From positions 79,488-143,487 of the forward strand of contig JBFWUM010000002.1 in assembly GCA_050247255.1 (NCBI GenBank): DNA of 64,000 nt. Reading direction: 5' to 3'. The stretch is from Vicinamibacterales bacterium (GTDB lineage Bacteria > Acidobacteriota > Vicinamibacteria > Vicinamibacterales > UBA2999). The position numbers and the translations under genes were made by a program. How positions within the stretch are numbered: the first letter of the stretch is position 1; each line of letters opens with the position of its first letter. Shown in pieces: positions 13,378 to 64,000 of this stretch. Below the pieces are notes generated by a model. The model saw only the letters and a program-made list of their open reading frames with translations. It was not told the DNA's origin and searched no databases.

Positions 13378-13378
13378 G

Positions 13379-16058: not shown

Positions 16059-16082
16059 ACCGACGAATAATAGGGACCGATC

Positions 16083-17980: not shown

Positions 17981-17985
17981 TGAGC

Positions 17986-18000: not shown

Positions 18001-18058
18001 AATCGGCGGTTCGCCGTCCGGCTGGTCACGCCCTCGCTGTGACCGAGAGGCACGGAGT

Positions 18059-18694
18059 GTGCCCACCATCTCCAACGATCAGTACGATCGCCAGATCCTT
18101 CAAGCCATCGCCTCCGGCCGGCCGCTGACCCAGCGGCGGCTGTCGGGCGAGCTCGGGGTCGCGCTTGGACTCACCAACCTCCTGATCCGAAGGCTGGCGA
18201 CCAAGGGCTACATCCGGGTCACCGGACTGGGCACGCGCCACGTCCAGTACCTGATGACGCCGGCCGGATGGGAGGCGCTCGGCCGGGCAACCCGCGCCTC
18301 GCTGGAGAACACCATTCGCCTCTATACCGAAACCCGCGAGCAGATCCGAGCCGGACTCTCCGAGGTGGCGCGGCGCAGCGCCGCCGATGCGGACGGCGCC
18401 GACGGGGTCGTCCTGTATGGTGCGGGAGACGTGGGGGAGATCGCCTACGTCAGCCTGCAGCGGACCGATCTGCGCGTGGTTGGCGTGATCGACGACCGCC
18501 GCCGCGGCAGGTTCTTCGACCTGACCATCCGCCCGTCAGAATGCCTGCAGCCGGACGGGCTCGACGGCGTGCCCTACTCGTACGTGATCATCGCCAGCGT
18601 CCGCCATGCCGACGCCATCCAGGCGCGGACCGATGCGCTCAACATCCCCAGGAACCGGGTCGTTCACATAGCCCACGTGGGGTCACATGCGTAA
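18059..18694 (+). CDS. Winged-helix (MarR-like, EPS-associated) transcriptional regulator fused to a Rossmann/CoA-binding-like domain (Rex-like architecture)
   Basis: GTG start with GAGAGG 8 nt upstream. The N-terminus QILQAIASGRPLTQRRLSGELGVALGLTNLLIRRLATKGYI is a wHTH. The C-terminus VVLYGAGDVGEIAYVSLQRTDLRVVGVIDD is a GxGxxG Rossmann. Confidence 0.75.
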   Translation: MPTISNDQYDRQILQAIASGRPLTQRRLSGELGVALGLTNLLIRRLATKGYIRVTGLGTRHVQYLMTPAGWEALGRATRASLENTIRLYTETREQIRAGLSEVARRSAADADGADGVVLYGAGDVGEIAYVSLQRTDLRVVGVIDDRRRGRFFDLTIRPSECLQPDGLDGVPYSYVIIASVRHADAIQARTDALNIPRNRVVHIAHVGSHA

Positions 18695-20528
18695 TCGCTT
18701 CTATCTTGCCGCCGACCTCGTCCTGATCTGGTTCGCCGCGCTGGCGGCGTTCGTGCTCCGGTTCGACCTGCGGTTCGAGGCCTACCGGCAGGAGTTCGTC
18801 TTCTTCGGCGTCGCCGCCATGGTCGCCAAGCCGGTGGCGTTCCTGGCGGCCGGCGTCTACCGGCGCTACTGGCGCTACGCGTCGCTGCCCGACCTGGTGC
18901 TGCTGCTCGGCGCGACAACGGCCGGGTCCCTGCTGGTGCTGCTGGCCCTCGTCGCCGGTCTGTGGACCGGGATGCTGCCGTCGTTCTCGCGTTCGGTGGT
19001 CGTGCTCGACGGCCTGCTGACCTTCATGCTGATCGGCGGCGCGCGGGTCGCGTCGCGCGTCATCTCGGAATCGCGGCGCCGCCACGAACACGGCGACGGC
19101 GGCCGGCGCATCGTGATTGCCGGCGCCGGCGCGGCAGGGGTCATGGTCGCGCGCGACCTCGAGCGCAACCCGCAGCTCGGCATCGAGGTCGTCGGGTTTC
19201 TCGACGACGACGCCGCCAAAGCGGGCAAGCGGATCGGCCCGGCCTACGTGCTCGGTCCGCTCGCGGCGCTGGATCGGGTGGCGGCGAAGTACGGCGTGGT
19301 CGAGGTTGTCATCGCCATGCCGACGGCCTCGGGCGCCACGATTCGCGCGCTCGTCGAGCAGGCGCGGGCGCTGAAGCTGGCCTCCAAGGTGATTCCCGGC
19401 GTGTTCGAGCTGGTCGGTGGCCAGGCAACGGCCAAGCGGCTGCGCGAGGTTCAGATTGCCGACCTGTTGCGCCGCAATCCGGCCCGCCCGCCGTCTCGAG
19501 CCAGCGAACACGTCGAAGGGCGGACGGTGCTGGTGACCGGCGCCGGCGGCTCGATTGGCCATGAGATCTGCCGTCAACTCGCGGTGTGGCGGCCGCGCCG
19601 GCTGGTGATGCTGGGACACGGCGAGAACAGCCTGTTCGAGGCGCGGGCCGCCCTGGCCGCCGACTATCCCGATCTGCACGCGGTCACCGTCATCGCCGAC
19701 ATCCGCGACGAGGGGCGGCTGGGTCGGATCTTCCGCGAGTTCGCCCCGGACGTGGTGTTTCATGCGGCCGCCCACAAGCATGTGCCGCTGCTCGAGCAGA
19801 ATCCGGAGGAGGCGTTCACCAACAACGCCATCGGCACCTGCAACGTCGTGCGCGCGGCGATCGCCGCCGGGACGCCGTCGCTGGTCTTTATCTCGACCGA
19901 CAAGGCGGCAACGCCGGTCAACCTCCTGGGCGCGTCGAAGCGGCTGGCGGAGGAAGTGGTGCGGCAGGCGGCTGCGCGCTTCGGCCGCCGGTTTGTCGTC
20001 GTCCGCTTCGGCAACGTGCTCGGCAGCCGCGGCAGCGCGGTGCCGATCTTCCAGCAGCAGATCGCCCGCGGCGGCCCGGTCACCGTCACCGACCCCGAGA
20101 TGAAGCGCTTCTTCATGACCATTCCCGAAGCCGCCCACCTGGTACTCGAGGCTGCGGCGATGGGCAGGGGCGGCGAGCTGTTCGTCCTGCGCATGGGCGA
20201 GCCCGTCCGGATCGTCGACCTGGCCACCGATCTGATCCGCTTGTCGGGCGCCGACGACGTGCCGATTGCCTACACCGGCCGGCGACCCGGTGAGAAGCTC
20301 GAGGAAGTGCTGTGGGAAGACGGCGCTGACATCGCCCCGACCGAGCACCCGGACATCCTGGCCGTCCGCGAGCCGGACCTCGGCGACGCGATCGACTGGG
20401 TCGCCGCCGCCGAGCACCTGGCCCGGATCGCGGCGCAGGGGCCCGCGGACGTCCTCCGCGCCGAGCTCGGCCGGTATCTCCCGACCTTCGTGCGCGGGGC
20501 AGGCGCGCCGGCGGTTCCCGAATCCTGA
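18687..20528 (+). CDS. Membrane-anchored polysaccharide biosynthesis protein CapD/WbpM/PglF family (UDP-GlcNAc 4,6-dehydratase type)
   Basis: 613 aa. It has N-terminal TM segments, then IVIAGAGAAG and VLVTGAGGSIG Rossmann motifs, STDKAATPVNLLGASKRLAE and VVVRFGNVLGSRGS. Confidence 0.9.
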   Translation: MRNRFYLAADLVLIWFAALAAFVLRFDLRFEAYRQEFVFFGVAAMVAKPVAFLAAGVYRRYWRYASLPDLVLLLGATTAGSLLVLLALVAGLWTGMLPSFSRSVVVLDGLLTFMLIGGARVASRVISESRRRHEHGDGGRRIVIAGAGAAGVMVARDLERNPQLGIEVVGFLDDDAAKAGKRIGPAYVLGPLAALDRVAAKYGVVEVVIAMPTASGATIRALVEQARALKLASKVIPGVFELVGGQATAKRLREVQIADLLRRNPARPPSRASEHVEGRTVLVTGAGGSIGHEICRQLAVWRPRRLVMLGHGENSLFEARAALAADYPDLHAVTVIADIRDEGRLGRIFREFAPDVVFHAAAHKHVPLLEQNPEEAFTNNAIGTCNVVRAAIAAGTPSLVFISTDKAATPVNLLGASKRLAEEVVRQAAARFGRRFVVVRFGNVLGSRGSAVPIFQQQIARGGPVTVTDPEMKRFFMTIPEAAHLVLEAAAMGRGGELFVLRMGEPVRIVDLATDLIRLSGADDVPIAYTGRRPGEKLEEVLWEDGADIAPTEHPDILAVREPDLGDAIDWVAAAEHLARIAAQGPADVLRAELGRYLPTFVRGAGAPAVPES

Positions 20529-20529
20529 C

Positions 20530-21483
20530 ATGCGGAAAAACTTTGCCATCACCGGCGTCGCCGGCTTCGTCGCTCCCCGGCATCTCCGGGCGATCCAGGA
20601 GACGGGGAACCGGCTGGTTGCCGCGGCGGATCCGCACGACGCGGTCGGCGTCCTCGACAGCTACTCATTCGACGTGCGGTTCTTTACCGAGATCGAGCGG
20701 TTCGACCGGCACCTCGAGAAGCTGCGGCGGGGACCGGACGCGGAGCGCGTGCACTTCGTGAGCATCTGCTCGCCCAACTACCTGCACGATGCGCACGTGC
20801 GGCTGGCGCTGCGGGCCGGCGCCGATGCCATCTGCGAGAAGCCGCTGGTCATCAGCCCGTGGAACCTCGACGCGCTGCAGGAGATCGAGCGCGAGACGGG
20901 CCACCGCGTCTACTCGGTGCTGCAGCTGCGGCTGCATCCCGCCCTCATCGCGCTGCGGGACCGGCTCGCCGCCGCCGGGTCGGCGCGCCACGAGGTCGAG
21001 CTGACCTACGTGACGGCGCGCGGCCGGTGGTACGACGTGTCGTGGAAGGGATCCGAGGAGCGTTCCGGCGGGCTGGTGCTCAACATCGGCATCCACTTCT
21101 TCGATCTGCTGCTGTGGCTGTTCGGGCCGGTCCTCGAGACCGCGGTCTACGAGCGGACGCCGCGGCACGCCGTCGGCCGGCTCGACTTCGAGCGCGCGAC
21201 CGTCCGCTGGCTGCTGTCGAGCGAGCCGGCGCACCTGCTCGCCGTGACGGGCGGCACGCGCGCCGGGTCGTTCCGGCGCATGCGCGTCGATGGCAGCGAG
21301 GTGCAGTTCACCGACGGCTTCGTCGACCTGCACACGCGCGTCTACGAAGAGGTGTTGGCCGGGCGCGGCGCCGGCATCGACGAGGCGCGGCCGGCCATCG
21401 AGCTGGCCCACCGCATCCGGCACCAGACGGTGACACCTGCCACGGCGGCGGCGGGCTCGCCGTTGAGCGTCCTGATCCCATAA
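20530..21483 (+). CDS. Gfo/Idh/MocA family oxidoreductase (WbpB-like sugar dehydrogenase)
   Basis: ATG 20530, 1 nt after the capD-like stop. MRKNFAITGVAGFVAPRHLRAI, ICSPNYLHDAH and CEKPL are present. Confidence 0.85.
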   Translation: MRKNFAITGVAGFVAPRHLRAIQETGNRLVAAADPHDAVGVLDSYSFDVRFFTEIERFDRHLEKLRRGPDAERVHFVSICSPNYLHDAHVRLALRAGADAICEKPLVISPWNLDALQEIERETGHRVYSVLQLRLHPALIALRDRLAAAGSARHEVELTYVTARGRWYDVSWKGSEERSGGLVLNIGIHFFDLLLWLFGPVLETAVYERTPRHAVGRLDFERATVRWLLSSEPAHLLAVTGGTRAGSFRRMRVDGSEVQFTDGFVDLHTRVYEEVLAGRGAGIDEARPAIELAHRIRHQTVTPATAAAGSPLSVLIP

Positions 21484-21509
21484 ACCGCCTGACCCGAGGA
21501 GCCACTGCG

Positions 21510-22502
21510 TTGCTGAACTGGAACGACTCGACGATTCTCATCACCGGCGGGACCGGCTCGTTCGGCCGGAAGTTCACCGAGATCCTGCTGCGTGACTACC
21601 GGCCGAAGAAGCTCATCATCTTCAGCCGCGACGAGTTGAAGCAGCACGAGATGCGGCAGACGTGGGACGACCGGAGCGGATCCAACGTGCGCTACTTCCT
21701 CGGCGACATCCGCGATCGCGATCGCCTCTATCGCGCCATGCGCGGGGTCGACGTCGTCGTCCATGCGGCGGCGCTGAAGCAGGTGCCGGCCTGCGAATAC
21801 AACCCGTTCGAGGCCGTGCAGACCAACGTGCACGGCGCCCAGAACATCATCAACGCGGCGATCGACACCGGCGTCCGCCGCATCATCGCCTTGAGCACCG
21901 ACAAGGCGGTGAATCCCGTCAACCTGTACGGCGGCACCAAGCTGGTCGCCGAGCGGCTCTTCACCGATGGCAACTCGTATGCGGCTGACAGCGGCACCCG
22001 CTTTTCCTGCGTACGCTACGGCAACGTGGTCGGCAGCCGCGGCTCGGTCATCCCGCTGTTCCTGCAGCAGCGGGCCAGCGGGCGCGTGACCGTCACCGAC
22101 GAGCGGATGACGCGCTTCTGGCTGACGCTCGAGCAGGGCGTCCGGTTCGTCATCCGCAGCGCCGAGGAGATGCTGGGCGGCGAGATCTTCGTGCCGAAGA
22201 TCCCGAGCATGCGGATCACGGACCTCGTCGAAGCGATCGCCCCGCGCTGCAAGGTCGAGATCACCGGCATCCGGCCCGGCGAGAAGCTGCACGAGGCGCT
22301 GCTCTCCGAGCACGAATCGCAGCGCACGCTCGAGCTCGATGGCATGTACGTCGTCCAGCCCGAGTTCGGCTGGTGGTCGGCCGGCCATTGGACAAAAGGC
22401 GCGCGCCTGCCCGACGGCTTCACCTACACGAGCGACGCGAACACGGAGTGGCTGACGCCCGCGCAACTGACCGCGATGTGCGGCGAGGTGGTACCGGCCT
22501 GA
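21510..22502 (+). CDS. pseB: UDP-N-acetylglucosamine 4,6-dehydratase (inverting), PseB
   Basis: TTG 21510 with GAGGAG at 21496-21501. (M)LNWNDSTILITGGTGSFGRKF, DIRDRDRL, STDKAVNPVNLYGGTKLVAE and VRYGNVVGSRGSVIPLF give the soluble FlaA1/PseB pattern. Confidence 0.85.
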   Translation: MLNWNDSTILITGGTGSFGRKFTEILLRDYRPKKLIIFSRDELKQHEMRQTWDDRSGSNVRYFLGDIRDRDRLYRAMRGVDVVVHAAALKQVPACEYNPFEAVQTNVHGAQNIINAAIDTGVRRIIALSTDKAVNPVNLYGGTKLVAERLFTDGNSYAADSGTRFSCVRYGNVVGSRGSVIPLFLQQRASGRVTVTDERMTRFWLTLEQGVRFVIRSAEEMLGGEIFVPKIPSMRITDLVEAIAPRCKVEITGIRPGEKLHEALLSEHESQRTLELDGMYVVQPEFGWWSAGHWTKGARLPDGFTYTSDANTEWLTPAQLTAMCGEVVPA

Positions 22503-23719
22503 TGGAGCGTCTGGCCGTCGACGGCGGGCGCCCGGTCCGTTCGACGCTGCTGCCGTACGGCAGGCAGGCGATTGACGACGACGACGTGCGCGCGGTCGTC
22601 GGGGTGCTGCAGTCCGACTGGCTGACCACCGGCCCGGCGGTCGGCGCCTACGAGGCGGACGTGTGCGCGGCGGTCGGCGCGCGCCACGCGGTGGCCTTCA
22701 GTTCCGGCACCGCGGCGTTGCACGCGGCGGTCCACGCCGCCGGCATCGGCCCCGGCGACGAGGTCATCACCTCGCCGCTGACCTTCGTCGCCAGCGCCAA
22801 CTGCGCGCGGTTCGTCGGCGCCGATCCGGTGTTCGCCGACGTGCGTGATGACACGCTGACGATCGATCCCGGGCGCGTTGCGGCGGCCATCGGCCCGCGC
22901 ACCCGCGCGCTCATTCCTGTCGATTTCGCCGGTCAACCCGCGGATCTCGACGAGCTCACGGCGCTGGCGGCACGGCACGGGCTGACCGTCATCGAAGACG
23001 CGGCGCACTCCCTCGGCGCGAGCTATCGCGGCCGCCGCGTGGGGACGCTCGCCACCCTGACCGTGTTCAGCACCCACCCGGTCAAGCACGTGACGACCGG
23101 CGAAGGCGGGGTCGTGGCCACCGATGACGCGCGCCTCGCCGATCGGCTGCGGCTGTTCCGCAACCACGGGATCAGCAGCGATGCACGGGCGCGGCAGGAG
23201 GCCGGCTCCTGGTACTACGAGATGGTGGAACTCGGCTACAACTACCGGATTACCGATCTCCAGTGTGCCCTCGGGTCGAGCCAGCTGAGGAAGCTTCCCC
23301 GGTGGGTGGAGCGGCGCCAGGAAATCGCCGCGCGCTACAGCGCCGAACTCGCCGGTCTCGAGCCGCTCCGCCTGCCCCTGGTGGCGGGCGATCGCACATC
23401 GTCCTGGCACCTGTACGTCGTCAGGGTTCGACGCGGCGCCCTGCGCGGGGACGTTGGACGGGATGCGGTGTTCAAGGCGCTGCGGGCGGAAAACATCGGT
23501 GTCAACGTCCACTACATCCCGGTGACCTGGCATCCGTACTATCAGCAGCTCGGCCATCGACGCGGCGCGCATCCGGTCGCGGAGTCCGCATACGAGGAGC
23601 TGATCACGCTGCCGCTCTTTCCCGCCATGTCGGACGCCGATGTCGGCGATGTCGTCACCGCCGTGCGCAAGGTGGTCACGGCCTACGCCCACCCGGCCGG
23701 CGCGGTGTCCGCGCGGTGA
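22502..23719 (+). CDS. pseC: UDP-4-amino-4,6-dideoxy-N-acetyl-beta-L-altrosamine transaminase, PseC (DegT family)
   Basis: The ATG overlaps the pseB TGA by 1 nt (TGATG). LPYGRQAIDDDDVRAVVGVLQSDWLTTGP, FSTHPVKHVTTGEGG (PLP lysine region) and YNYRITDLQCALGSSQL are present. Confidence 0.85.
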   Translation: MERLAVDGGRPVRSTLLPYGRQAIDDDDVRAVVGVLQSDWLTTGPAVGAYEADVCAAVGARHAVAFSSGTAALHAAVHAAGIGPGDEVITSPLTFVASANCARFVGADPVFADVRDDTLTIDPGRVAAAIGPRTRALIPVDFAGQPADLDELTALAARHGLTVIEDAAHSLGASYRGRRVGTLATLTVFSTHPVKHVTTGEGGVVATDDARLADRLRLFRNHGISSDARARQEAGSWYYEMVELGYNYRITDLQCALGSSQLRKLPRWVERRQEIAARYSAELAGLEPLRLPLVAGDRTSSWHLYVVRVRRGALRGDVGRDAVFKALRAENIGVNVHYIPVTWHPYYQQLGHRRGAHPVAESAYEELITLPLFPAMSDADVGDVVTAVRKVVTAYAHPAGAVSAR

Positions 23720-25233
23720 CATCGCCCGGGACGCGGCGGCCAGTCGTGCTGCTGCGGGCGGACGCCTCGCCGGAAGCCGGCGCCGGACATCTCCTGCGGA
23801 TGGTGGCGCTCGGGGCGGCCCTGCGCTCCTCGAGCGATGTGACGCTTGCCACCTGTACCACGCATCCCGGCCTGCTCGAACATGCCGCACACCATGGGCT
23901 CGCGGTCGTGCACCTGGACCGGCCGTATCCGGCTCCTGACGATGCCGACGGCGTGCTGGCGCGGGCGCGGGCCGCGGTGGCCCCCTGGGTGGTGGTTGAT
24001 GGCTACCAGTTCGACGGGCGCTACGCGGAACGGCTCCGCGGCGCCGGTGCCCGCGTTGCCATGGTCGACGACCTGCCCCGGCTCGAGCGCTACGACGTCG
24101 ACCTGTTGCTCGATCAGAACCCCGGCGCGCTGCGCCAGCCCTATGCGGGCGCGCCGTCTCGCCTGCTGCTCGGGCCGCAGTTCACGCTGCTGCGCCCCGG
24201 CTTCGCCGCCGCGCGCACCGGCGCCCGCCCCGACGGCCGCCGCATCCTCGTCAGCGCCGGCGCCAGTGATGTCGGCGGCGTGACGAGCCGCATTCTTGAA
24301 GCGCTGGCGCCGCGCACCGAGCTGCAGGTGACGGCCGTCATTGGCGCGGCCAACCCCGGTGGTGCGGCAGTCCGGGCGGCATTTGCGGACGTGCCGCACA
24401 TCCGGTTTGCCGAGAACAGCCTGGACATGCCGGCACTGATGACCGGTGCCGACCTCGCCATCGCGAGCACCGGCATCATGCTGTGGGAGCTGGCCTGCCT
24501 CGGCGTGCCCACGCTCGTCATCAGCAGCACGCCGGTTCAGCATGCGGTCGCCCGCATCGCTCATGAGTGCGGCGCCTGGCAGTGGCTCGGTGACAGCGCG
24601 GCGATGACCAGCGCGGAGATCGGCGCCGCCCTCGATGCCCTGCTCGCCGATTCCGCCAGGCGCGCCGAGATGTCGCGGCTCGGCAGGATCATTGTCGACG
24701 GCCAGGGCGCGGCGCGCGTGGCACGCGCGCTGCTCACCGAGGCGCCCCCGGACTGGGCGGTTCGGCGTTCCGGGCCCGCCGACGCAGAGGCGATCTGGGA
24801 GATCGCCGCGGATCCAGGCGTGCGCCGCCTCTCGTTCCGCAGCGAGACGTTCGGCTTTGCCGAGCATGACGCCTGGTATCGCCGCCGGCTCGAGTCGCCC
24901 GCCTGCCAGCTGTGGGTCGTCGCGCGCGAGGGTGTGGTCGGCGGCTTCGTCCGCTACGACCGCAGCGGCGAGGACGCTGAGGTCAGCATTGCGGTCGCGC
25001 CGGCGTTGCGCGGACACGGCCTGGGAGCCCGGCTGCTCTCGGAATCGGCACGGCCGGCGGGCCGTGCGCTCGGCGTGCGGCGCATCCGCGCCTCCGTCCT
25101 CGAGGACAACGACACGTCGCGACGCCTCTTCGCGAGCGTCGGATTTGCCGCGGTCGATGGCCCGGCGGCCCGTTACGGTCATCCCTGCCTGATGTTCGAA
25201 CTGGCGGTGACACCCGAGGCGGCCGCATCGTGA
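23716..25233 (+). CDS. pseG: Bifunctional PseG (UDP-2,4-diacetamido-2,4,6-trideoxy-beta-L-altropyranose hydrolase) / PseH-like GNAT N-acetyltransferase fusion
   Basis: GTG 23716 (GTGA overlap). VVLLRADASPEAGAGHLLRMVAL is the PseG N-terminus in a MurG-like fold. From about residue 335 a GNAT domain follows (FAEHDAWYRRRL...VAPALRGHGLGARLL...NDTSRRLFASVGF). Confidence 0.8.
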   Translation: MTSPGTRRPVVLLRADASPEAGAGHLLRMVALGAALRSSSDVTLATCTTHPGLLEHAAHHGLAVVHLDRPYPAPDDADGVLARARAAVAPWVVVDGYQFDGRYAERLRGAGARVAMVDDLPRLERYDVDLLLDQNPGALRQPYAGAPSRLLLGPQFTLLRPGFAAARTGARPDGRRILVSAGASDVGGVTSRILEALAPRTELQVTAVIGAANPGGAAVRAAFADVPHIRFAENSLDMPALMTGADLAIASTGIMLWELACLGVPTLVISSTPVQHAVARIAHECGAWQWLGDSAAMTSAEIGAALDALLADSARRAEMSRLGRIIVDGQGAARVARALLTEAPPDWAVRRSGPADAEAIWEIAADPGVRRLSFRSETFGFAEHDAWYRRRLESPACQLWVVAREGVVGGFVRYDRSGEDAEVSIAVAPALRGHGLGARLLSESARPAGRALGVRRIRASVLEDNDTSRRLFASVGFAAVDGPAARYGHPCLMFELAVTPEAAAS

Positions 25234-26839: not shown

Positions 26840-26846
26840 GAGACCG

Positions 26847-28022: not shown

Positions 28023-28027
28023 CGCGC

Positions 28028-28663: not shown

Positions 28664-28681
28664 ACTGAACATGGGAGCCTT

Positions 28682-30222: not shown

Positions 30223-30230
30223 GAGCCGGG

Positions 30231-31591: not shown

Positions 31592-31606
31592 ACCGAGCGT
31601 GCCCGC

Positions 31607-45349: not shown

Positions 45350-45350
45350 T

Positions 45351-47231: not shown

Positions 47232-47232
47232 C

Positions 47233-53740: not shown

Positions 53741-53756
53741 TACGCTAGATCTGCAG

Positions 53757-55942: not shown

Positions 55943-55961
55943 CGCAGTCGGTGATCACGGC

Positions 55962-57383: not shown

Positions 57384-58559
57384 TTGACCACGCCGCTGCG
57401 CATCGCCAACTTCATGGACTCGTCGCTCGAGGCGCTCGAGCGGAAGGGCAACCTGTCCCACGCGCTCGCGCTCTACAACCCGCGCGGCATCGCCGAGAAG
57501 GTGATTCACTTCACGCCGTTTCCCGCGGACAGCCGGTATGCAGGCCGCTTCGCCGAAGCGGGCGTGGACGTTGTGCCATTCTTCATCGGGCGTACGCGCG
57601 GCATCCTCGGGTCGGCGGCCGCCGTCCCGGCGGCGCTGGTGAAAGTCGTCGCGACGATGCGGCGTGAGCGCATTACGCTCGTTCGGGGGCGCGCGCCGTA
57701 TTTCGGCAGCCTGCTCGGCGCCATCGCCGGGCGCCTGCTCGGCATTCCGACGGTCGTCTCCCTCGGCGGCGACAACCGGCTGGTGCAGGTGCGAGAGCAG
57801 CGCTACTACTTCGGCAGCCGATGGCTGTCCTTCGGCATGGAGTGGCTGGTGCTGCGGCTTGCCAATGCCATCATCGTCCCGAACCAGTTCACGCGGGACT
57901 ACGTCGCAGCGATCATCGGAAAGCGAGCGGCTCATCGGAAGGCGACGGTGATCCCATGGATCCTGGAGCGCATGCTCGACGAGCAGCGATCGCCGGCGCC
58001 GGTGGAACCGACGGCCCTCGGGCTCGACCCCGCAACCCCGTACGTCCTGATCGTCGGTCATCTCAATCACTACAAGTTCTCAAAGGAGATGTTCGACGTG
58101 GCCGCGGACGTGCTCGCCCGCAGGCCGGGCGCGCTTCAGTTCGTGTTCTGCGGCGATGGGCACCTCAGGCCCGAGGGTGAGCGCCGCTTTGCCGGGGTGC
58201 CCGGGGTGCGCTTCATGGGGTGGCAGCCGAACGAAACGGTGCTCGGCCTGATGCTCGGCGCCGCCGCCATCCTGATCCCGATGTCGGGCTTCGTGCTGCT
58301 GGAAGCCGCGGCGCTCGGCCGGCCGGTGCTGGTGTCCGACATCGAATGGCACCGTGAGATGGTGACGGAGGGGGTGAGTGGCTGGCTGCTTCCACCGCAG
58401 TCCCCCTCGCTCTGGGTCGAGCGGCTGATCTGGCTGCTCGACCATCAGGCCGCCGCCGCCGCCGCCGGGGCACGGCTCCGCGAGCGATTCCTGGAGGCCT
58501 ATACGCCGGCGGCCGCATTCGCCGCCGAGGCGCAGCTATACGCCCGGCTCACCGCGTGA
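57384..58559 (+). CDS. Glycosyltransferase family 4/1 (GT-B)
   Basis: The TTG start abuts the upstream TGA. The C-terminus GFVLLEAAALGRPVLVSDIEWHREMV is the EX7E-type motif region. Confidence 0.8.
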   Translation: MTTPLRIANFMDSSLEALERKGNLSHALALYNPRGIAEKVIHFTPFPADSRYAGRFAEAGVDVVPFFIGRTRGILGSAAAVPAALVKVVATMRRERITLVRGRAPYFGSLLGAIAGRLLGIPTVVSLGGDNRLVQVREQRYYFGSRWLSFGMEWLVLRLANAIIVPNQFTRDYVAAIIGKRAAHRKATVIPWILERMLDEQRSPAPVEPTALGLDPATPYVLIVGHLNHYKFSKEMFDVAADVLARRPGALQFVFCGDGHLRPEGERRFAGVPGVRFMGWQPNETVLGLMLGAAAILIPMSGFVLLEAAALGRPVLVSDIEWHREMVTEGVSGWLLPPQSPSLWVERLIWLLDHQAAAAAAGARLRERFLEAYTPAAAFAAEAQLYARLTA

Positions 58560-59716
58560 GAATCCTGACCGTCGTCGGCGCCCGTCCGCAGTTCATCAAG
58601 GCCTCGGCCGTGTCCCGGGTGCTGGAGGCAGCCGGGCTGCACGAAGTGCTCGTGCACACCGGCCAGCACTTCGACGACGACATGTCGTCGGTGTTCTTTC
58701 GTGAGCTCGGCCTGCGCCCGCCACACTACGAGCTGGGGATCAACGGCGGGAGCCACGGACAGATGACCGGCCGCATGCTGGAGCGGGTCGAGGAGGTCAT
58801 CCTCCGCGAACAACCCAGCGCCGTGCTCGTGTACGGCGACACGAATTCGACGCTGGCAGGCGCGCTCGCCGCGGCGAAAGTCCCCGTTCCAGCGGTGCAT
58901 GTCGAGGCGGGGCTGCGCTCGTTTCGTCGCGCGATGCCAGAAGAGGTCAATCGGGTACTGACCGATCACGTGTCGTCCCTGTTGTGCTGTTCCTCGCGCA
59001 CGTCGGTCGACCATCTGCGCCGTGAGGGATTCCAGGGACTGGTCGGCGACGGGGCCCTGGTCACCGGTGACGAACCGCTGCCCGGGCGCGCGCCATGGGT
59101 GGCCAACGTCGGAGACGTGATGTTCGACGTGCAGATCCGGGCACGGGACCTTGCCGCCGCCCGAAGCACCGTGCGCGAGCAGCTCGGCGTGCGGCCGGGC
59201 GACTATGCGGTGCTCACGATTCACCGCGCCGAAAACACGACGTCCGTCGACGCATTGACGCGCCTGCTCGATCCGGTGACGAAGCTGGCGGCGCGGATGC
59301 CGGTGGTCTTCGCGCTGCATCCCAGGACCGAGGCACTGTTGCGCGCGGGAGACGCCTATGAGCGGCTGGCCGCGTCGCCGGGCATGGTCCTGACCCGGCC
59401 GCTTCCGTACCTCGACTTCCTTCACCTGCAGGCCGGCGCCCGCGCCATCCTCACCGACTCGGGCGGCATGCAGAAGGAGGCCTTCTGGCTGCGCGTTCCC
59501 TGCCTGACCTTGCGGGACGAAACGGAGTGGCCGGAGACGACGGCCGGAGGGTGGAATCGGATCATGGGCTCCGCGCCGGGTGATCTTGGCGCGGCGCTCG
59601 ATCTCACGCCGGACCCGGCCACAGACATCGGCGTATTCGGCCGCGGTGATGCTGCCGAACGCATCGTTCGGCTACTCGGCAGTTTCTGTGCCGGTGATCG
59701 CGTGCGAGCGTTTTGA
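58556..59716 (+). CDS. wecB: UDP-N-acetylglucosamine 2-epimerase (non-hydrolysing)
   Basis: GTG 58556 (GTGA overlap). (M)RILTVVGARPQFIKASAV, HTGQHFD, VLVYGDTNSTLAGALAA, HVEAGLRSF, EEVNR and TDSGGMQKEA are present. Confidence 0.9.
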   Translation: MRILTVVGARPQFIKASAVSRVLEAAGLHEVLVHTGQHFDDDMSSVFFRELGLRPPHYELGINGGSHGQMTGRMLERVEEVILREQPSAVLVYGDTNSTLAGALAAAKVPVPAVHVEAGLRSFRRAMPEEVNRVLTDHVSSLLCCSSRTSVDHLRREGFQGLVGDGALVTGDEPLPGRAPWVANVGDVMFDVQIRARDLAAARSTVREQLGVRPGDYAVLTIHRAENTTSVDALTRLLDPVTKLAARMPVVFALHPRTEALLRAGDAYERLAASPGMVLTRPLPYLDFLHLQAGARAILTDSGGMQKEAFWLRVPCLTLRDETEWPETTAGGWNRIMGSAPGDLGAALDLTPDPATDIGVFGRGDAAERIVRLLGSFCAGDRVRAF

Positions 59717-60999
59717 TGAAGCGGGTACTGTTCATCTCGTACTTCTACCCACCCTATCGCAGCGTTGGCGCGACCCGCGTCTCGAAGATGACGAGGTACC
59801 TGGCGGATGTCGGATGGGAGGCGCACGTCCTGACGGTCGATGCCGCCGATCTTCCCGCGGGAGCGCCGATCGAAGTGCCCGAGCAGCGGATTTATCGCAT
59901 CCCCTGCTCCTTCGACGTGATGGCGCTCCCCCGCATGCTCGTGGGCCGAGGTGCGGTCACGGCCCGCGGCTCCGAAACCACCGATTCCTGGAAGTCCGCC
60001 TCGCTCTGGAGGCTTGGGCAGGCGTACCGCAACGTGGTCTGCTTTCCCGATGCGCAGGTGGGCTGGGCGGCACCGGCCGCACGCGCGGCAATCCGGCTGA
60101 TTGGCGAGGTGCGCCCGCATGTGCTGGTCAGCAGTTCGCTGCCGAACGCCAGTCACCTGGCGGCGTGGCGCGCGGCGGCGGCCACCGGGATTCCGTGGGT
60201 GGCCGAGCTGCGCGATCTCTGGACGGACAATCACAACTTTCGCCGAATTCCGCCGCTGCGATATCTGGAACGCCGGCTCGAACACAAGGTGCTCAGCCGC
60301 GCCGATGCCCTCGTGACTCCGTCAGGCGTCTGGTCTGATGCCCTGGCGCGACGGTTCTCCCGGCCGACCTACGTGGTGCCAAACGGCTTCGATCCGCTCG
60401 ATTATCCAGACGGATGTCCGCCGGCCGGACGGATGGAACTCGTCTACACTGGGATGTTCTACAACGGCAAACAGAATCCGGACCCGCTGTTCGGCGCCGT
60501 TGCGTCGCTTGCGCAAAGCGGCGCCATCCGCCCGGAGGCTTTCCGCCTGCGGTTCGTCGGGCAGTATCTGGCGCCCCTTGCCGCGCGCGCCGAGGCAGCC
60601 GGCATCGGCCCTTTCGTGGCGGTTGAACCTCCGGTGCCCTATCGGGACGCGCTCGGATTGCAGAAGTCGGCGACGGCTCTCGTCTTCTTCGACTGGGCCG
60701 ATGGACGCGAGAAGGGCTGGTACTCGGCGAAGATCTATGAATACCTCGGAGCTGGCCGGCCGGTGATCAGCATCGGACCCCAGGGGAGTGTCGTCGCTGA
60801 TCTGCTTCGCCGTACGGGAGCCGGCCAGACGGCGTCGACCCGCGACGAGGCGCGCGCGATCCTGGCTGGATGGCTCGACGAGCAGTCGTCCACCGGGGGC
60901 GTCACCTGCCGGAGTGATGCTGAGTCGCTGCGACCATACTGGCGGCAGACTGCCGCTGCAACGCTTGGTCGCATCCTGGATGCCCATGCTCGCTTCTAG
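59716..60999 (+). CDS. Glycosyltransferase family 4-like (GT-B)
   Basis: The ATG overlaps the wecB TGA (TGATG). MKRVLFISYFYPPYRSVGATRVSKM and a C-terminal KIYEYLGAGRPVI are present. Confidence 0.75.
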   Translation: MKRVLFISYFYPPYRSVGATRVSKMTRYLADVGWEAHVLTVDAADLPAGAPIEVPEQRIYRIPCSFDVMALPRMLVGRGAVTARGSETTDSWKSASLWRLGQAYRNVVCFPDAQVGWAAPAARAAIRLIGEVRPHVLVSSSLPNASHLAAWRAAAATGIPWVAELRDLWTDNHNFRRIPPLRYLERRLEHKVLSRADALVTPSGVWSDALARRFSRPTYVVPNGFDPLDYPDGCPPAGRMELVYTGMFYNGKQNPDPLFGAVASLAQSGAIRPEAFRLRFVGQYLAPLAARAEAAGIGPFVAVEPPVPYRDALGLQKSATALVFFDWADGREKGWYSAKIYEYLGAGRPVISIGPQGSVVADLLRRTGAGQTASTRDEARAILAGWLDEQSSTGGVTCRSDAESLRPYWRQTAAATLGRILDAHARF

Positions 61000-62797
61000 G
61001 CCGGGCGCGCAAGTGACCGCCGGTGTCGTGGCTCTGGCAGCGGTGGCGGCAGTGGCGGCATCGTACGCGGACGCCCCGCCGTGGACGGTCGCGGTGGCGC
61101 TGGCCACCTTCTCGTTGCTGGCCTGGGTTCTCGATCGCACGGCCGGCGCCGCCGCGTATGTCATGGCACTCGGTGTCCAGGTCGCACAGTCGCTGACGCT
61201 GCTCCGAGTGGCGCTCGCCGACTTCCTGATCCTGCCGGTCATCGTCAAGTCGGCCGGGGACGTGCTCTTGAAGCGCGCCAGGTTGCCGCGTACGACGCTC
61301 GGTGCGCCCTTTGCGGCACTTCTGGCAGTGATGGCTGCAGCGACCGCCATCGGCTACGTGCGGCATGGCACGATAAGCACCTACGTCCTCTTCAACAAGG
61401 ACGCCGGCGTCGTGTTCCTGGTGCTCGCGAGCCTGGCGCTGGCCATGCAGCTGCGCTCGACCGCCGATGTCGTGCGTCTTGTCAATCTCTTCGTCGTCGC
61501 CGGTTCGGTAACCAACGCGCTGGCGCTCGGGGGCGTGGCGTTGAGCATGACCGTGCTGCCCAATCCGCTCTATCTGAGCAATCAGCGGATGTACGGGTGG
61601 CTCCTGAACCCCAGTAACTGGGCGGGCTACGTCGCCATGATCGCGGCGCTCGAGCTGCCCCGGCTGGCAGACGGCCGGCCCGGCTCCTGGAAGGTCCTGC
61701 GGGGCGCAAACTTCGCGCTGCTCCTGTTGTCGGTAGGGTTGACGGTCTCCCGCAGTGCCTGGCTGAGCCTGGCGGGCAGCGCCGTCGTGCTGCTGGCCCT
61801 GCTGGCGGTGCGGCGAATCCAGGGACAGCGCGTTCGCCTCGCACCAGCGGTCGCTGCGACGGTGACCGCGGTTGCGTTCATGATCCCTCTTGGGTGGGTC
61901 GCGATTGTCCAGTGGACGAGTCTGCTGACGGTCCAGTCGGCGCCGAGCGAAGCGGCGGGCGAGTTGCGGGCCCGGCTCAGCGACTCGTGCGCGATCACAT
62001 GGAGGCCCGAATTGTGCGCTCGGGTCCCGGATGACCAGGTTCGAGTGGCGCGCCAGCGCCTTGTGGATGCCGCCCAGTGCGCGCGCGCCTGGGAGCCATC
62101 GTGCTCGGTGTTCTCGGAAGGCGATCTCGCATCGGCAGAAATACGGCTGCGCAGCGCGGCGCGCAACTGCGTCAGCGGCCCGGCGCCGCGCGAGTGCCTC
62201 GACCAGTTGCCGGCAGCAGCGCTCGACGCGGCGAGGGCAGAGCTCGAGCGGGTCGCAGCGACTCCCGAGCAGGCGCCGGTTCCCGATCGGGGTAGCTCGT
62301 CGGCGGACCGGGCACCGAGACCAGGCCTCCTTGCGCTCCGGGACGGCGCCATGCTGAACGCGCGAGGGCTCGAGGACCGCGCGGCGATCCTCGCTGTTGC
62401 CTGGCGTGACTATACGGCCAGTCCGGCAACGCTCGCCCTGGGCATCGGCCTCGGCACCTTCCTCGCCACGTCCGCTGCCGATTTCGGCGTGCCGCTCATC
62501 ATCCACAACACGCCGCTGTGGTTCCTCATCGAGATGGGACCGGCCGGGCTCCTCGTTTTGTTGTGGATCGCGTCCGTCGCGGGCCGGAACCTGTGGGTGA
62601 CGATGCAGGCCGAGGACGCCACCGGAGACGTCGCCACCGGGCTGCTGCTGGCCTTGGCGTTCTGGTCGTCGTACGCGCTCTTCAATGAGGGGTTCTATCT
62701 GCGGCACTTCTGGCTCGTATTGCTCGCGGCCGATCAGCTGTATGTCCACCGCAAACGCCTCGCGCCGGCATCTCCTGGGTCAGTGATCGCCGGATGA
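60980..62797 (+). CDS. O-antigen ligase/polymerase family (Wzy_C-like) membrane protein with a large Cys-repeat loop insert
   Basis: Start ATG 60980 (MPMLASRPG), chosen inside track ORF 60788..62797. It is multi-pass, with LLSVGLTVSRSAWLSL (Wzy_C-like core) and a ~170-aa hydrophilic insert before the last TM segments. Confidence 0.7.
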   Translation: MPMLASRPGAQVTAGVVALAAVAAVAASYADAPPWTVAVALATFSLLAWVLDRTAGAAAYVMALGVQVAQSLTLLRVALADFLILPVIVKSAGDVLLKRARLPRTTLGAPFAALLAVMAAATAIGYVRHGTISTYVLFNKDAGVVFLVLASLALAMQLRSTADVVRLVNLFVVAGSVTNALALGGVALSMTVLPNPLYLSNQRMYGWLLNPSNWAGYVAMIAALELPRLADGRPGSWKVLRGANFALLLLSVGLTVSRSAWLSLAGSAVVLLALLAVRRIQGQRVRLAPAVAATVTAVAFMIPLGWVAIVQWTSLLTVQSAPSEAAGELRARLSDSCAITWRPELCARVPDDQVRVARQRLVDAAQCARAWEPSCSVFSEGDLASAEIRLRSAARNCVSGPAPRECLDQLPAAALDAARAELERVAATPEQAPVPDRGSSSADRAPRPGLLALRDGAMLNARGLEDRAAILAVAWRDYTASPATLALGIGLGTFLATSAADFGVPLIIHNTPLWFLIEMGPAGLLVLLWIASVAGRNLWVTMQAEDATGDVATGLLLALAFWSSYALFNEGFYLRHFWLVLLAADQLYVHRKRLAPASPGSVIAG

Positions 62798-63675
62798 CAT
62801 TCGCACGTCCCGTCGCCAACGCGCTGACCTTCGACGTCGAGGACTGGCATCAGCTCGTCGGCACGCGGCTCACCGGCACGACACAACCCTGCTCGCCGCA
62901 CTGCGTCGAGCAGACCCGCGAGATCCTGGCCACGCTCGCCGACGCCGGGGTGCACGCCACCTTCTTCGTGCTCGCCAACGTCGCCGAAACCTACCCCGCG
63001 CTCATCCGCGAGATCCAGGCCGCCGGGCACGAGGTGGCCAGCCATGGCTGGAGCCATCGCCGCGTCTACACGCAGGACCGCGCGGAGTTCGCGGCGGAGA
63101 CCGCGCGCAGCAAGGCGCTGCTCGAGGACATCCTCGGTGCGCCGGTTGCCGGGTATCGGGCCGCCGAGTTCTCGATTACCGCCGCGTCGCGCTGGGCGCT
63201 GGACGTCCTCGCCGAGCTCGGGTTCCGCTACGACTCGAGCATCTTTCCGATCCGCGGCGGCCGCTACGGCATCGAGGGCGCGCCGCTCGCGCCGCATCGG
63301 GTCCGCGTCGCCGCGGGCGACATCGTCGAAGTGCCGATGACCGCCGTCGAATGGCGCGGCCGCCGCTGGCCGGTCGGCGGCGGCGGCTACTTCCGCCTGA
63401 TGCCGTACGCGCTGACGCGGGCGGCTATCGCGTCGGTGAACGCCGCCGGGCGCGGCGCCGTGATCTACTTTCATCCCTACGAGTTCAGCCGGGCGCACCT
63501 GCGGCTCGCGCTGCCGGCCTGGCACCAGTACGTCACCGGGGCGCGCTACAGCGTGCTGCACAACTTCAACCGAGGAACCAACCGGCGGCGCTTCGCCCGG
63601 CTGCTGCGCGAGTTCCGCTTCCAGACCATCTCGGCCATCCTTGACCATGGACCTGCGAACCAAGAAGTACTTTGA
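62794..63675 (+). CDS. Polysaccharide deacetylase (NodB/CE4) with DUF3473-type C-terminus, PEP-CTERM/exosortase-locus subfamily
   Basis: ATG 62794 (ATGA overlap). NALTFDVEDWHQ, ATFFVLANVAETYPALIREI, GHEVASHGWSH, YRAAEFS and GGGYFRLMPY are present. Confidence 0.85.
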   Translation: MTFARPVANALTFDVEDWHQLVGTRLTGTTQPCSPHCVEQTREILATLADAGVHATFFVLANVAETYPALIREIQAAGHEVASHGWSHRRVYTQDRAEFAAETARSKALLEDILGAPVAGYRAAEFSITAASRWALDVLAELGFRYDSSIFPIRGGRYGIEGAPLAPHRVRVAAGDIVEVPMTAVEWRGRRWPVGGGGYFRLMPYALTRAAIASVNAAGRGAVIYFHPYEFSRAHLRLALPAWHQYVTGARYSVLHNFNRGTNRRRFARLLREFRFQTISAILDHGPANQEVL

Positions 63676-64000
63676 AGACCACGCGGCGAAGTTCGACTCC
63701 CTCTATCACGAGGGACGCCCGCTCGAACGACGCTTCAACCGCTTCTTCCGCAAGGCGATCTACGAGCGGTTCGCCATCACCTTCGATCGCTCGGAGCCGA
63801 TTGTAGGGAAATCGGTGCTCGACGTCGGCTGCGGGTCGGGGCGCTACTCGCTCGAGTACGCCCGGCGAGGCGCGGCACGCGTGCTCGGCGTCGACTTCTC
63901 GGCGCCGATGCTCGGGATCGCCCGCCAGCTGGCGACGGAGCAGGGCGTGGCCGATCGGTGCGAGTTCCGTCAGGTCGATTTCACGGAGTTCTCGATCGAC
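63647..64000 (+). CDS. Class I SAM-dependent methyltransferase (N-terminal part; runs off the window)
   Basis: ATG 63647. MDLRTKKYFEDHAAKFDSLY...VLDVGCGSGRYSLEYARRGAARVLGVDFS. The frame is open to position 64000. Confidence 0.8.
   Translation, partial: MDLRTKKYFEDHAAKFDSLYHEGRPLERRFNRFFRKAIYERFAITFDRSEPIVGKSVLDVGCGSGRYSLEYARRGAARVLGVDFSAPMLGIARQLATEQGVADRCEFRQVDFTEFSID

What the first reader, a model, noticed from the sequence alone, without database searches (positions are those of the whole stretch)
18059..64000. 46-kb, 41-gene unidirectional glycan super-operon with almost no intergenic DNA
From 18059 to the window end every gene is on the + strand. With my start calls the largest gap is 26 nt (21484-21509) and all others are 19 nt or less. 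At least 16 junctions are 4-nt start/stop overlaps (ATGA or GTGA) at 23716, 25230, 26282, 29470, 30860, 32353, 33303, 37209, 38144, 41334, 42158, 43132, 48201, 49790, 58556 and 62794. Three more are 1-nt TGATG overlaps (22502, 39469, 59716). I saw no hairpin plus T-tract terminator and only one sigma70-like promoter (17952-17980). This implies either one extremely long, translationally coupled transcript or cryptic promoters buried in coding DNA. It also explains the many GTG/TTG starts. Such uninterrupted packing over 46 kb is unusual even for O-antigen/EPS loci.
Basis: partly seen in the sequence, partly recalled or inferred. Interest (0 to 1): 0.7.

Follow-up and report, generated by a model that had tools for sequence, protein, structure and literature searches.

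The report
Fifty-gene one-way surface-glycan gene array
A soil acidobacterium packs about 50 sugar-coat genes head-to-tail on one strand with almost no spacer DNA, behind one conserved promoter and switch gene; the layout is real and long, but it matches a known kind of locus, and only RNA data can show whether it is one transcript.

Summary
From 18059 to 64000 all 41 genes are on the + strand. All 19 quoted overlap motifs are present. With homology-supported starts, all 40 junctions are overlaps or gaps of at most 26 nt (168 intergenic nt, 0.37%). A near-identical public contig continues the run to about 72.7 kb: about 50 genes over 54.7 kb.

It is a Wzx/Wzy-type surface-glycan locus of a Vicinamibacterales MAG. 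It carries a complete pseudaminic-acid core (PseB/C/G/I), an acetamidino module (WbuX/HisH/WbuZ), three AsnB-like amidotransferases, many methyltransferases, a formyltransferase, an O-acyltransferase and glycosyltransferases.

It is followed by a palindrome, GTTCA-N5-TGAAC (17986-18000), that lies upstream of homologues of the first gene in about 126 of 130 loci from several phyla. That gene encodes a MarR-like winged-helix plus Rossmann-like regulator.

Still open: one transcript or several. Terminator and promoter scans have little power in this genome.

Closest analogue: MarR-headed Leptospira rfb loci, up to 121 kb. Verdict: new member of a known kind, moderate interest.

The parts
17952..17980 (+). 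Sigma70-type promoter, TTGACA-17 nt-TCTAAT (11 of 12 matches)
   Evidence: Seen directly. It is the only + strand site with at least 9/12 in 17001-64000, and no shuffle reached 11/12. An equivalent promoter is present in 47 of 56 unique Acidobacteriota-type upstream regions, ending 3-9 nt before the palindrome.
17986..18000 (.). Perfect palindrome GTTCATCACATGAAC (core GTTCA-N5-TGAAC) at about +1 to +15; inferred operator of the first gene's product
   Evidence: It is the only perfect copy in the window. Across 130 loci (1.4 Mb) there are 126 exact copies within 270 nt upstream of regulator homologues, 9 elsewhere, and only 1 downstream.
18037..18059 (+). Conserved leader motif CTGTGACCGAGAGGCACGGAGTG, which includes the Shine-Dalgarno region
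   Evidence: GGCACGRAGTG is invariant across 29-51 leaders. No covarying RNA structure was found. Its role beyond ribosome binding is unknown.
18059..18694 (+). First gene: MarR-like winged-helix plus C-terminal Rossmann-like domain regulator, 211 aa
   Evidence: It hits HTH_24 and TIGR04176 MarR_EPS at 38.9 bits, below the cutoff of 88. The AF2 model has pLDDT 88. Foldseek matches MarR folds and, over the whole length, a Rex-family repressor at low TM-score. There are 502 homologues and 252 in species-representative genomes.
18687..21483 (+). Membrane PglF/EpsC-type UDP-sugar 4,6-dehydratase (613 aa, 4 TM-like segments) and a GFO/IDH/MocA oxidoreductase
21510..26839 (+). Pseudaminic acid core: PseB, PseC, PseG-GNAT fusion, PseI, extra GNAT
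   Evidence: NCBIfam equivalogs score above their cutoffs: PseB 493.5/407.75, PseC 462.2/423.5, PseG 181.3/153.55, PseI 487.9/340.25.
26847..30863 (+). Acetamidino module (WbuX amidotransferase, HisH-like, WbuZ/HisF2-like), a methyltransferase and the Pse-associated methylase
   Evidence: WbuX scores 327.8/203.2, HisH 227.1/105.4 and Pse_Me-ase 157/112, all above cutoff. WbuZ scores 292.7/299.7, just below.
30860..39469 (+). Two cytidylyltransferases, a GFO oxidoreductase, a DegT aminotransferase, two unknown proteins, a KpsS/Capsule_synth-like protein and Wzx flippase 1
   Evidence: The Wzx has 8 TM-like segments.
39469..50704 (+). AsnB-like amidotransferases (two), methyltransferases (three), an SDR epimerase/dehydratase, a DegT aminotransferase, a formyltransferase and an unknown 530-aa protein
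50674..53740 (+). Wzx-like flippase 2 (499 aa) and an 8-TM unknown protein (524 aa; Wzy-like polymerase/ligase candidate)
53757..57383 (+). Radical SAM/SPASM enzyme, GDSL-family protein and MBOAT O-acyltransferase
57384..64000 (+). GT1-family glycosyltransferase, WecB 2-epimerase, GT4 glycosyltransferase, 10-TM unknown protein (Wzy-like candidate), XrtA-type polysaccharide deacetylase and a methyltransferase cut by the window end
   Evidence: WecB scores 251.4/210.15. The deacetylase scores 272.6/276.2 on TIGR03006. L004 shows the run continuing with a methyltransferase, AsnB, GT4, Bac_transf, PglD-like, DegT, two unknowns and an epimerase.
17168..17884 (-). Divergent formyltransferase-like gene that bounds the head of the run

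Best explanation
**What it is (shown).** This is the main surface-glycan (O-antigen/EPS-type, Wzx/Wzy-dependent) biosynthesis locus of a Vicinamibacterales acidobacterium.
- About 50 co-directional genes span 54.7 kb; 41 of them lie in this window.
- The genes are tightly packed, and their content is as listed in the parts.
- The head carries a conserved promoter, a conserved palindrome and a conserved regulator gene.

**How it most likely works (inferred).**
- RNA polymerase starts at the sigma70-type promoter at 17952-17980.
- The first gene product, a MarR-like winged-helix protein with a Rossmann-like domain, binds the GTTCA-N5-TGAAC palindrome over the transcription start. It acts as an autorepressor and is released by a nucleotide-type ligand.
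- Transcription then reads far into the array, possibly through all of it.
- Overlapping or abutting stop/start codons couple translation and leave no untranslated stretch longer than 26-27 nt. That would shield the transcript from Rho-dependent polarity without a recognisable RfaH/ops, UpxY or EAR-type antiterminator.
- Weak internal promoters probably add to expression. They are not marked by this operator.
For: - **Layout and packing:**. Extension beyond the window.
- **Gene functions:**
- **Single strong promoter:**
- **Conservation at the head:** the promoter, operator and leader are conserved across relatives. The operator is confined to the head of the runs: 126 copies at the head against 1 downstream in 1.4 Mb.
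- **Regulator heads same-strand runs:** in most loci with 10 kb of downstream sequence, the run reaches the end of the available sequence, in Acidobacteriota and in other phyla. Downstream genes are sugar-nucleotide enzymes.
- **Regulator fold:**
- **No known antitermination element:** no Rfam match, which I take to include the JUMPStart and EAR families; no ops element; no sigma54 site.
- **No -10-like hexamers:** none of at least 5/6 matches on the sense strand over 45.5 kb.
Against: - There are no transcript data.
- The promoter scan has low sensitivity here. Three other regions that must hold promoters show no match of at least 9/12.
- Depletion of -10-like hexamers is general in these genomes. 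It occurs in cluster and non-cluster genes and on both strands, with observed/expected of 0.2-0.5. The zero count is therefore not specific to this run.
- The terminator scan has no power in this genome.
- In well-studied long glycan clusters internal promoters are common (my own knowledge).
- A block at 47-52 kb has atypical codon usage, so it may have arrived with its own signals.
- Repressor action and the ligand are inferred only from operator position and protein fold.
Confidence: 0.6

Rival explanations
1. The array is several independent transcription units laid end to end. The head promoter serves only the regulator and the first few genes. Later blocks (for example the Pse module, the amino-sugar/formyl module, and the polymerase/O-acylation/glycosyltransferase module) use promoters buried in upstream coding DNA, possibly weak -10-only or alternative-sigma promoters.
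For: - Other obligatory promoters in this window are not recognisable as -35/-10 pairs, so hidden ones are plausible.
- There are two Wzx flippases and two Wzy-like membrane proteins, which suggests at least two assembly lines.
- The 47-52 kb block has atypical codon scores.
- A near-copy of the operator sits in the GDSL/MBOAT junction at 55953-55967.
- Gene content after the regulator differs between relatives, consistent with modular assembly.
Against: - No + strand site reaches 9/12, and no -10-like hexamer of at least 5/6 occurs anywhere in 45.9 kb.
- No junction offers more than 26 nt of non-coding DNA.
- The family's operator is almost never found inside runs.
- The 55953 copy is within chance expectation: 0.69 per window.
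Confidence: 0.35
2. The tight packing is an artefact of permissive start-codon choice in GC-rich DNA, where open frames run far upstream. The true starts lie further downstream and leave ordinary intergenic gaps.
For: - A purely score-maximising caller gave five gaps above 30 nt: 35, 40, 52, 62 and 167.
- Public callers disagree on a few starts: 41400 against 41334, and 58610 against 58556.
Against: - At seven junctions the tight start is the only candidate within 100 nt.
- Curated profiles begin at residue 1-4 of the tight starts for PseB, WecB, WbuZ/HisF2 and both AsnB proteins. Homologues conserve the N-terminal Zn-ribbon of the 49790 methyltransferase.
- With these starts, every gap is at most 26 nt.
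Confidence: 0.03

Closest known systems
Leptospira rfb (O-antigen) locus
   Same: [quoted passage not shown]
- It sits at a fixed chromosomal site.
- Sugar-modifying gene content varies between strains.
- It uses Wzx/Wzy-type processing.
- Sizes reach 121,402 bp, with a median near 99.5 kb in pathogens (PMC4758666, PMC10958091).

Here too a MarR-like gene heads the locus. smpB lies upstream both in the window and in a relative. Content differs between relatives.
   Different: - The phylum is different.
- I could not test whether the Leptospira MarR is homologous to this winged-helix plus Rossmann-like protein, or whether it uses the same palindrome.
- Strict co-directionality and junction tightness of the rfb loci were not checked here. 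That most rfb genes share one strand is my recollection.
- The sugar repertoire differs: rhamnose and fucose in Leptospira, pseudaminic acid and acetamidino sugars here.
Long polysaccharide operons with processive antitermination (RfaH/ops-JUMPStart in Enterobacteria, UpxY in Bacteroides, EAR RNA in the Bacillus eps operon, LoaP)
   Same: These are long one-promoter glycan operons. In Bacteroides a dedicated regulatory gene (upxY) also comes first. The B. subtilis epsA-O operon also places the PglF/EpsC-type dehydratase early and the PglC/PglD/PglE-type genes (epsL-N) late, as seen here. The facts about these families are from my own knowledge.
   Different: - There is no ops element.
- There is no Rfam hit, which I take to cover JUMPStart and EAR.
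- No NusG/KOW-type protein was found among the Pfam hits.
- There is no conserved leader RNA structure.
- The first gene here is a DNA-binding winged-helix protein, not a NusG paralogue.
- The run is 2-3 times longer than those operons.
XrtA/PEP-CTERM exopolysaccharide loci, with their MarR_EPS regulator (TIGR04176)
   Same: The first gene's wHTH covers the whole MarR_EPS model (positions 3-102 of 105). The locus also holds an XrtA-type deacetylase, AsnB-like amidotransferases and stp-like GT4 enzymes.
   Different: - All the system-specific models score below their cutoffs: 38.9/88, 272.6/276.2 and 474.1/816.9. The stp glycosyltransferase models score far below theirs.
- No exosortase and no PEP-CTERM protein gene was seen in the window.
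- The regulator carries an extra Rossmann-like domain of about 100 aa.
Rex-family redox-sensing repressors
   Same: The two-domain plan is the same: an N-terminal winged helix plus a C-terminal Rossmann-type nucleotide-binding domain. Both have a palindromic operator at the promoter. Foldseek aligns the whole model to RSP (3wg9).
   Different: - TM-score is only 0.35 and identity 14%.
- There is no sequence-level hit to Rex in the PDB.
- The operator half-sites differ. Here it is GTTCA-N5-TGAAC. Rex binds TTGTGAA-N4-TTCACAA (my own knowledge).
- The ligand is unknown.

Membership tests
Operon (single transcription unit) | All genes are co-transcribed from one promoter into one RNA. | not testable with these tools
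   No transcript data are available. Indirect evidence only: one strong conserved promoter and no recognisable internal promoter or terminator. The scans have low power in this genome.
Operon (single transcription unit) | Genes are co-directional with short or overlapping junctions. | tested here: met
   All 40 junctions in the window are at most 26 nt, and 24 of them overlap. Nine further junctions on L004 are at most 27 nt.
Pseudaminic acid biosynthesis pathway | PseB, PseC, PseG and PseI equivalogs score above their curated cutoffs. | tested here: met
   PseB 493.5/407.75, PseC 462.2/423.5, PseG 181.3/153.55, PseI 487.9/340.25.
Pseudaminic acid biosynthesis pathway | PseH N-acetyltransferase and PseF cytidylyltransferase are present. 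| tested here: inconclusive
   PseH scores 36.5/93.1, on the GNAT domain fused to PseG, and a separate GNAT gene is also present. PseF scores 32.5/205.7. Two CTP_transf_3 cytidylyltransferases are present.
RfaH/ops (JUMPStart) antitermination | An ops element, GGCGGTAGnnTG, lies in the leader. | tested here: not met
   With one mismatch allowed there are 4 matches in the window, against 4.87 expected by chance, and none is in the leader. There is no Rfam hit; I take Rfam to include JUMPStart.
EAR / structured leader antitermination RNA | A conserved, covarying RNA structure lies in the leader or early operon. | tested here: not met
   There is no Rfam hit at E up to 5 in 17000-21600. RNAalifold on 29 leaders found 0 compensatory pairs, and only the DNA palindrome and a 4-bp stem were predicted.
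XrtA/PEP-CTERM EPS system | System-specific equivalogs (MarR_EPS, deacetylase, amidotransferase) score above their cutoffs. | tested here: not met
   The scores are 38.9/88, 272.6/276.2 and 474.1/816.9.
XrtA/PEP-CTERM EPS system | An exosortase gene and PEP-CTERM substrate genes are present. | tested here: not met
   None appears among the Pfam or NCBIfam hits for window genes. The rest of the genome was not examined.
MarR-headed O-antigen locus (Leptospira rfb type) | A MarR-type regulator gene is the first gene of a long, variable glycan locus at a conserved chromosomal site. | tested here: met
   The regulator is the first gene. Content varies in relatives. smpB lies upstream in the window and in L007/L022.
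MarR-headed O-antigen locus (Leptospira rfb type) | The regulator is homologous to the Leptospira rfb MarR. | not tested
None appears among the 80 genome loci listed.
Rex-family repressor | Sequence or fold membership, plus an NAD(H)-binding Rossmann domain. | tested here: inconclusive
   The two-domain plan and a GxGxxA motif are present. Foldseek TM-score to RSP is only 0.35, and there is no PDB sequence hit to Rex.

The most novel reading that the evidence does not exclude
All of about 54.7 kb and 50 cistrons are made as one mRNA from a single autoregulated promoter, with no dedicated antiterminator. Unbroken translational coupling, with no untranslated stretch above about 27 nt, is what keeps Rho off the transcript. 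The winged-helix plus Rossmann-like protein and its GTTCA-N5-TGAAC operator form an uncharacterised master switch for surface-glycan loci. That switch is shared by Acidobacteriota, Nitrospirota, Rokubacteria, Methylomirabilia, Binatia and Omnitrophota.
Probability: 0.2. Interest if true: 0.65.

Novelty: new member of a known kind. Interest (0 to 1): 0.4.

Why it matters
Acidobacteriota are among the most abundant soil bacteria, and their surface glycans and the regulation of those glycans are essentially unstudied.

This locus gives three concrete things:
- A complete, compact blueprint for a pseudaminic-acid-containing, heavily modified glycan: amidated, methylated, formylated and O-acylated.
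- A testable regulator-operator pair that marks the head of such loci in several poorly cultured phyla. It could be used to find and delimit glycan loci in metagenomes.
- A natural test case for how far a bacterial transcript can run on translational coupling alone.

If RNA data showed a single 55-kb transcript, it would rank among the longest glycan operons known. If not, the locus is an ordinary, if unusually tidy, O-antigen/EPS-type cluster.

Tried and rejected
1. **Leader peptide.** Ten loci suggested a short upstream ORF running from the NTG inside the palindrome to a conserved stop just before the SD motif. With 51 unique leaders, frame 0 and frame 2 reach that stop equally often (22 each). 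The 'start' codon is CTG in 17 of them. Rejected.

2. **Selection against internal promoters.** The sense strand of the run has 0 hexamers resembling -10. A 3-periodic Markov model expects 7.0-7.3, and synonymous shuffles expect 10.5. Relatives show the same depletion in cluster and non-cluster genes and on both strands, with observed/expected of 0.2-0.5. The depletion is therefore not specific to this run.

3. **Structured leader RNA or known antitermination elements.**
   - Rfam found nothing at gathering or E-value thresholds.
   - No ops element was found.
   - RNAalifold found no covariation.

4. **Sigma54 promoters.** There was one chance-level match, inside a gene.

5. **Intrinsic terminators as evidence.** The scan gives chance-level counts everywhere. 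It finds none at the convergent end of the run or at unit ends in 1-18 kb. It is uninformative in this genome.

6. **Exact look-up of PseB with start 21510.** It found no record, so public start calls for 20.5-25.7 kb were not obtained.

8. **PDB sequence search with the regulator.** It gave only a marginal MarR-type hit.

Full report
**Observation**

The window is about 70% G+C, so raw ORF lists are full of shadow ORFs. I trained a codon-usage model on clear genes and selected the best non-overlapping gene set. This gives 41 genes from 18059 to 64000, all on the + strand, with the last one cut by the window end. The 18 kb upstream change strand repeatedly.

**Start codons and junctions**

I listed every candidate start at each junction and chose among them with independent evidence.

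Public gene calls were available on contigs that are 99.8-100% identical to the window wherever they align, apart from the diverging last kilobase of L001.

The residue at which curated profiles begin supports these starts:
- PseB: profile position 2 falls at residue 4 for start 21510.
- WecB: position 1 falls at residue 1 for start 58556.
- AglZ/HisF2: position 1 falls at residue 1 for start 29470.
- WbuX supports 26847, and the Pse-associated methylase supports 30231.
- Both AsnB-like proteins align from profile position 1 at residue 1-2 for starts 39469 and 45351. I infer the Met-Cys N-terminus that Ntn amidotransferases require.

The one junction where a gap of 100-167 nt seemed possible was 49793/49790. 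It closes because the N-terminal CxxC...CxxC zinc-ribbon of that methyltransferase is conserved in homologues.

The result:
- 24 overlaps: fourteen of 4 nt, three of 1 nt, three of 8 nt and four longer.
- 9 gaps of 0-10 nt.
- 7 gaps of 11-26 nt.
- 168 intergenic bases in 45,942.

This changes nothing material.

**The run is longer than the window**

The sequence occurs in NCBI MAG GCA_050183565.1, named Vicinamibacterales bacterium, and in Logan assemblies. Contig L004 matches the window at 8,148 of 8,163 shared positions. It continues with nine more + strand genes:
- a methyltransferase
- a third AsnB-like amidotransferase
- a GT4 glycosyltransferase
- a Bac_transf initiating transferase
- a PglD-like acetyltransferase
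- a DegT aminotransferase
- two unknown proteins
- an epimerase

Their gaps are at most 27 nt. The first - strand gene appears after window-equivalent 72757. The full run is therefore about 50 genes over 54.7 kb.

**What the genes are**

- A membrane PglF/EpsC-type dehydratase comes early.
- The pseudaminic acid core is complete, with PseB, PseC, PseG and PseI all above NCBIfam equivalog cutoffs.
- The acetamidino module is WbuX, HisH-like and WbuZ/HisF2-like, with a Pse-associated methylase.
- Two cytidylyltransferases and a KpsS-like protein follow.
- There are two Wzx-type flippases and two polytopic unknown proteins of 8 and 10 TM-like segments, which are Wzy-like candidates.
- The remainder comprises AsnB-like amidotransferases, at least seven methyltransferases, a formyltransferase, a radical SAM/SPASM enzyme, a GDSL plus MBOAT pair, WecB, GT1 and GT4 transferases, and an XrtA-type deacetylase just under its cutoff.

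With the PglC/PglD/PglE-type genes at the far end, this is a lipid-linked, Wzx/Wzy-type heteropolysaccharide pathway. Sequence alone cannot say whether the product is O-antigen, capsule/EPS or a protein glycan.

**The head of the run**

This is where the new information lies. The 174-nt divergent intergenic region holds TTGACA-17-TCTAAT at 17952-17980. The tool's own scan misses it because it requires A at position 2 of the -10 hexamer.

With a slightly relaxed rule, it is the only + strand site with at least 9/12 matches in 17001-64000. It scores 11/12, a level no shuffle reached.

The first gene encodes a 211-aa protein with two parts:
- An N-terminal MarR-like winged helix. It hits HTH_24 and covers the whole TIGR04176 MarR_EPS model, but scores only 38.9 bits against a cutoff of 88.
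- A C-terminal Rossmann-like domain with an invariant motif, YGAGDVAEIAYVSLQ. The AF2 model has pLDDT 88, and the overall plan resembles Rex-family repressors, but only loosely.

The protein has 502 homologues at E below 1e-5. It has 252 relatives in species-representative genomes: Acidobacteriota at 45-68% identity, and Nitrospira, Rokubacteria, Methylomirabilia, Binatia and Omnitrophota at 31-38%.

**Comparing the upstream regions**

- In 47 of 56 unique Acidobacteriota-type regions, a sigma70-like promoter of at least 9/12 ends 3-9 nt (mode 5) before a palindrome, GTTCA-N5-TGAAC. In the window the palindrome is at 17986-18000 and is perfect.
- In Nitrospira-type loci the palindrome overlaps the -10 position.
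- In Rokubacteria and Binatia loci there are two tandem copies.
- Across 130 loci (1.4 Mb) there are 126 exact palindromes within 270 nt upstream of the regulator gene. Nine lie elsewhere, and only one lies downstream.
- In the window, the only other near-match has one mismatch, at 55953-55967. That is within chance expectation.
- A second invariant motif, GGCACGRAGTG, is preceded by CTGTRR and sits just before the start codon. It shows no covarying RNA structure.

From the operator's position over the transcription start, I infer that the first gene's product is an autorepressor of the head promoter. From the Rossmann-like domain, I infer a nucleotide-type ligand. Neither is shown.

**Is the layout typical of relatives?**

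In most loci with 10 kb of downstream sequence, the regulator heads a same-strand run that reaches the end of the available DNA. This holds for 15 of 18 cleaner Acidobacteriota-type loci.

In those 18 loci, in-run junctions have a median gap of 1 nt and 72% are at most 30 nt. Same-strand junctions in the upstream flanks have a median gap of 34 nt and 46% are at most 30 nt.

The genes behind the regulator differ from locus to locus, but they are sugar-nucleotide enzymes, often of the Pse/NeuB type. smpB lies upstream both in the window and in a relative.

This is the pattern of a serotype-like variable glycan locus at a fixed chromosomal site.

**One transcript or several?**

This cannot be decided here.

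In favour of a dominant head promoter:
- It is unique and conserved.
- There is no + strand -35/-10 pair inside the run, and no -10-like hexamer of at least 5/6 in 45.9 kb.
- The operator is confined to the head of runs.
- Non-coding space is lacking.

Against reading too much into this:
- Three other regions in the window that must hold promoters have no match of at least 9/12.
- The depletion of -10-like hexamers is general in these genomes.
- The terminator scan returns chance-level counts everywhere, and none at the true end of the run or at unit ends upstream.

I therefore rate 'a head promoter drives transcription far into, or through, the array' at about 0.6. I rate 'strictly one 55-kb mRNA with no internal promoters' at about 0.2.

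No known processive antitermination device is visible:
- There is no ops element.
- There is no Rfam match, which I take to cover the JUMPStart and EAR families.
- There is no NusG-like gene among the Pfam hits.
- There is no structured leader RNA.

If long read-through occurs, unbroken translational coupling is the obvious candidate for protection against Rho. This is inference.

**Comparison with what is known**

For scale, the longest E. coli K-12 operon is cited as 16 genes. Proximity-based predictions in metagenomes reach 185 genes (PMC7814594).

The closest analogue is the Leptospira rfb O-antigen locus. [quoted passage not shown] The size and the MarR-first plan of the present locus are therefore not without precedent.

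What is new is the lineage, the extreme tidiness (0.37% intergenic), and the cross-phylum regulator-operator pair, for which I found no description. I file the finding as a new member of a known kind, of moderate interest.

Noticed in passing
window 17986-18000; loci L008-L168 upstream of regulator homologues: The palindrome GTTCA-N5-TGAAC is conserved upstream of homologues of the first gene in Acidobacteriota, Nitrospira, Rokubacteria, Methylomirabilia, Binatia and Omnitrophota. There are 126 exact copies at the head against 9 elsewhere in 1.4 Mb. Rokubacteria and Binatia loci carry two tandem copies. Some loci (L012/L146, L102/L121, L016) have a further copy 2.8-5.5 kb upstream.
   Followed up: yes
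window 18037-18059: The leader motif CTGTRRnnGAnnGGCACGRAGTG is invariant across dozens of loci, which is more than a Shine-Dalgarno sequence needs. No covarying structure was found. In the window the GTG start lies 1 nt after GGAG, whereas relatives have a 6-7 nt spacer.
   Followed up: partly
window 55953-55967: GATCACGGCGTGAAC is a one-mismatch copy of the operator. It lies exactly in the 19-nt junction between the GDSL and MBOAT genes and overlaps the GTG start at 55962. It is within chance expectation (0.69 per window), but its position is suggestive.
   Followed up: no
window 47233-52173: Four consecutive genes (formyltransferase, unknown 530 aa, methyltransferase, Wzx-like) have low codon-model scores and lower G+C (about 0.67). 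This may be a more recently acquired module.
   Followed up: no
window 1-18058: The upstream 18 kb also encode glycan enzymes in mixed orientation: RmlC-like, GT2, nucleotidyltransferase, epimerase, GT4-like, methyltransferase, a second MBOAT and a formyltransferase. The glycan region is therefore larger than the one-way run. smpB (8639-9166) lies inside it and is also upstream of the regulator in L007/L022.
   Followed up: partly
window 4896-8672 (+) and 14349-16043 (-): These are large ORFs with good coding statistics but no Pfam hit: 744-1258 aa, abutting smpB, and 564 aa with 5 TM-like segments.
   Followed up: no
window 18059-64000 and Acidobacteriota loci L008, L009, L011, L012, L013, L019: Hexamers resembling -10 (TATAAT, at least 5/6) are depleted to 0.2-0.5 of the 3-periodic Markov expectation on both strands. 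This holds for cluster and non-cluster genes alike, so it is a general feature of these genomes.
   Followed up: yes
window 49790-49900: The methyltransferase at 49790 has an N-terminal CxxC...CxxC zinc-ribbon that is conserved in homologues on L142 and L091.
   Followed up: partly
L001 (window-equivalent 45.0-45.8 kb): All 135 mismatches between public contig L001 and the window fall in its last kilobase, inside an AsnB paralogue. This looks like an assembly breakpoint at a repeated gene family rather than strain variation.
   Followed up: partly
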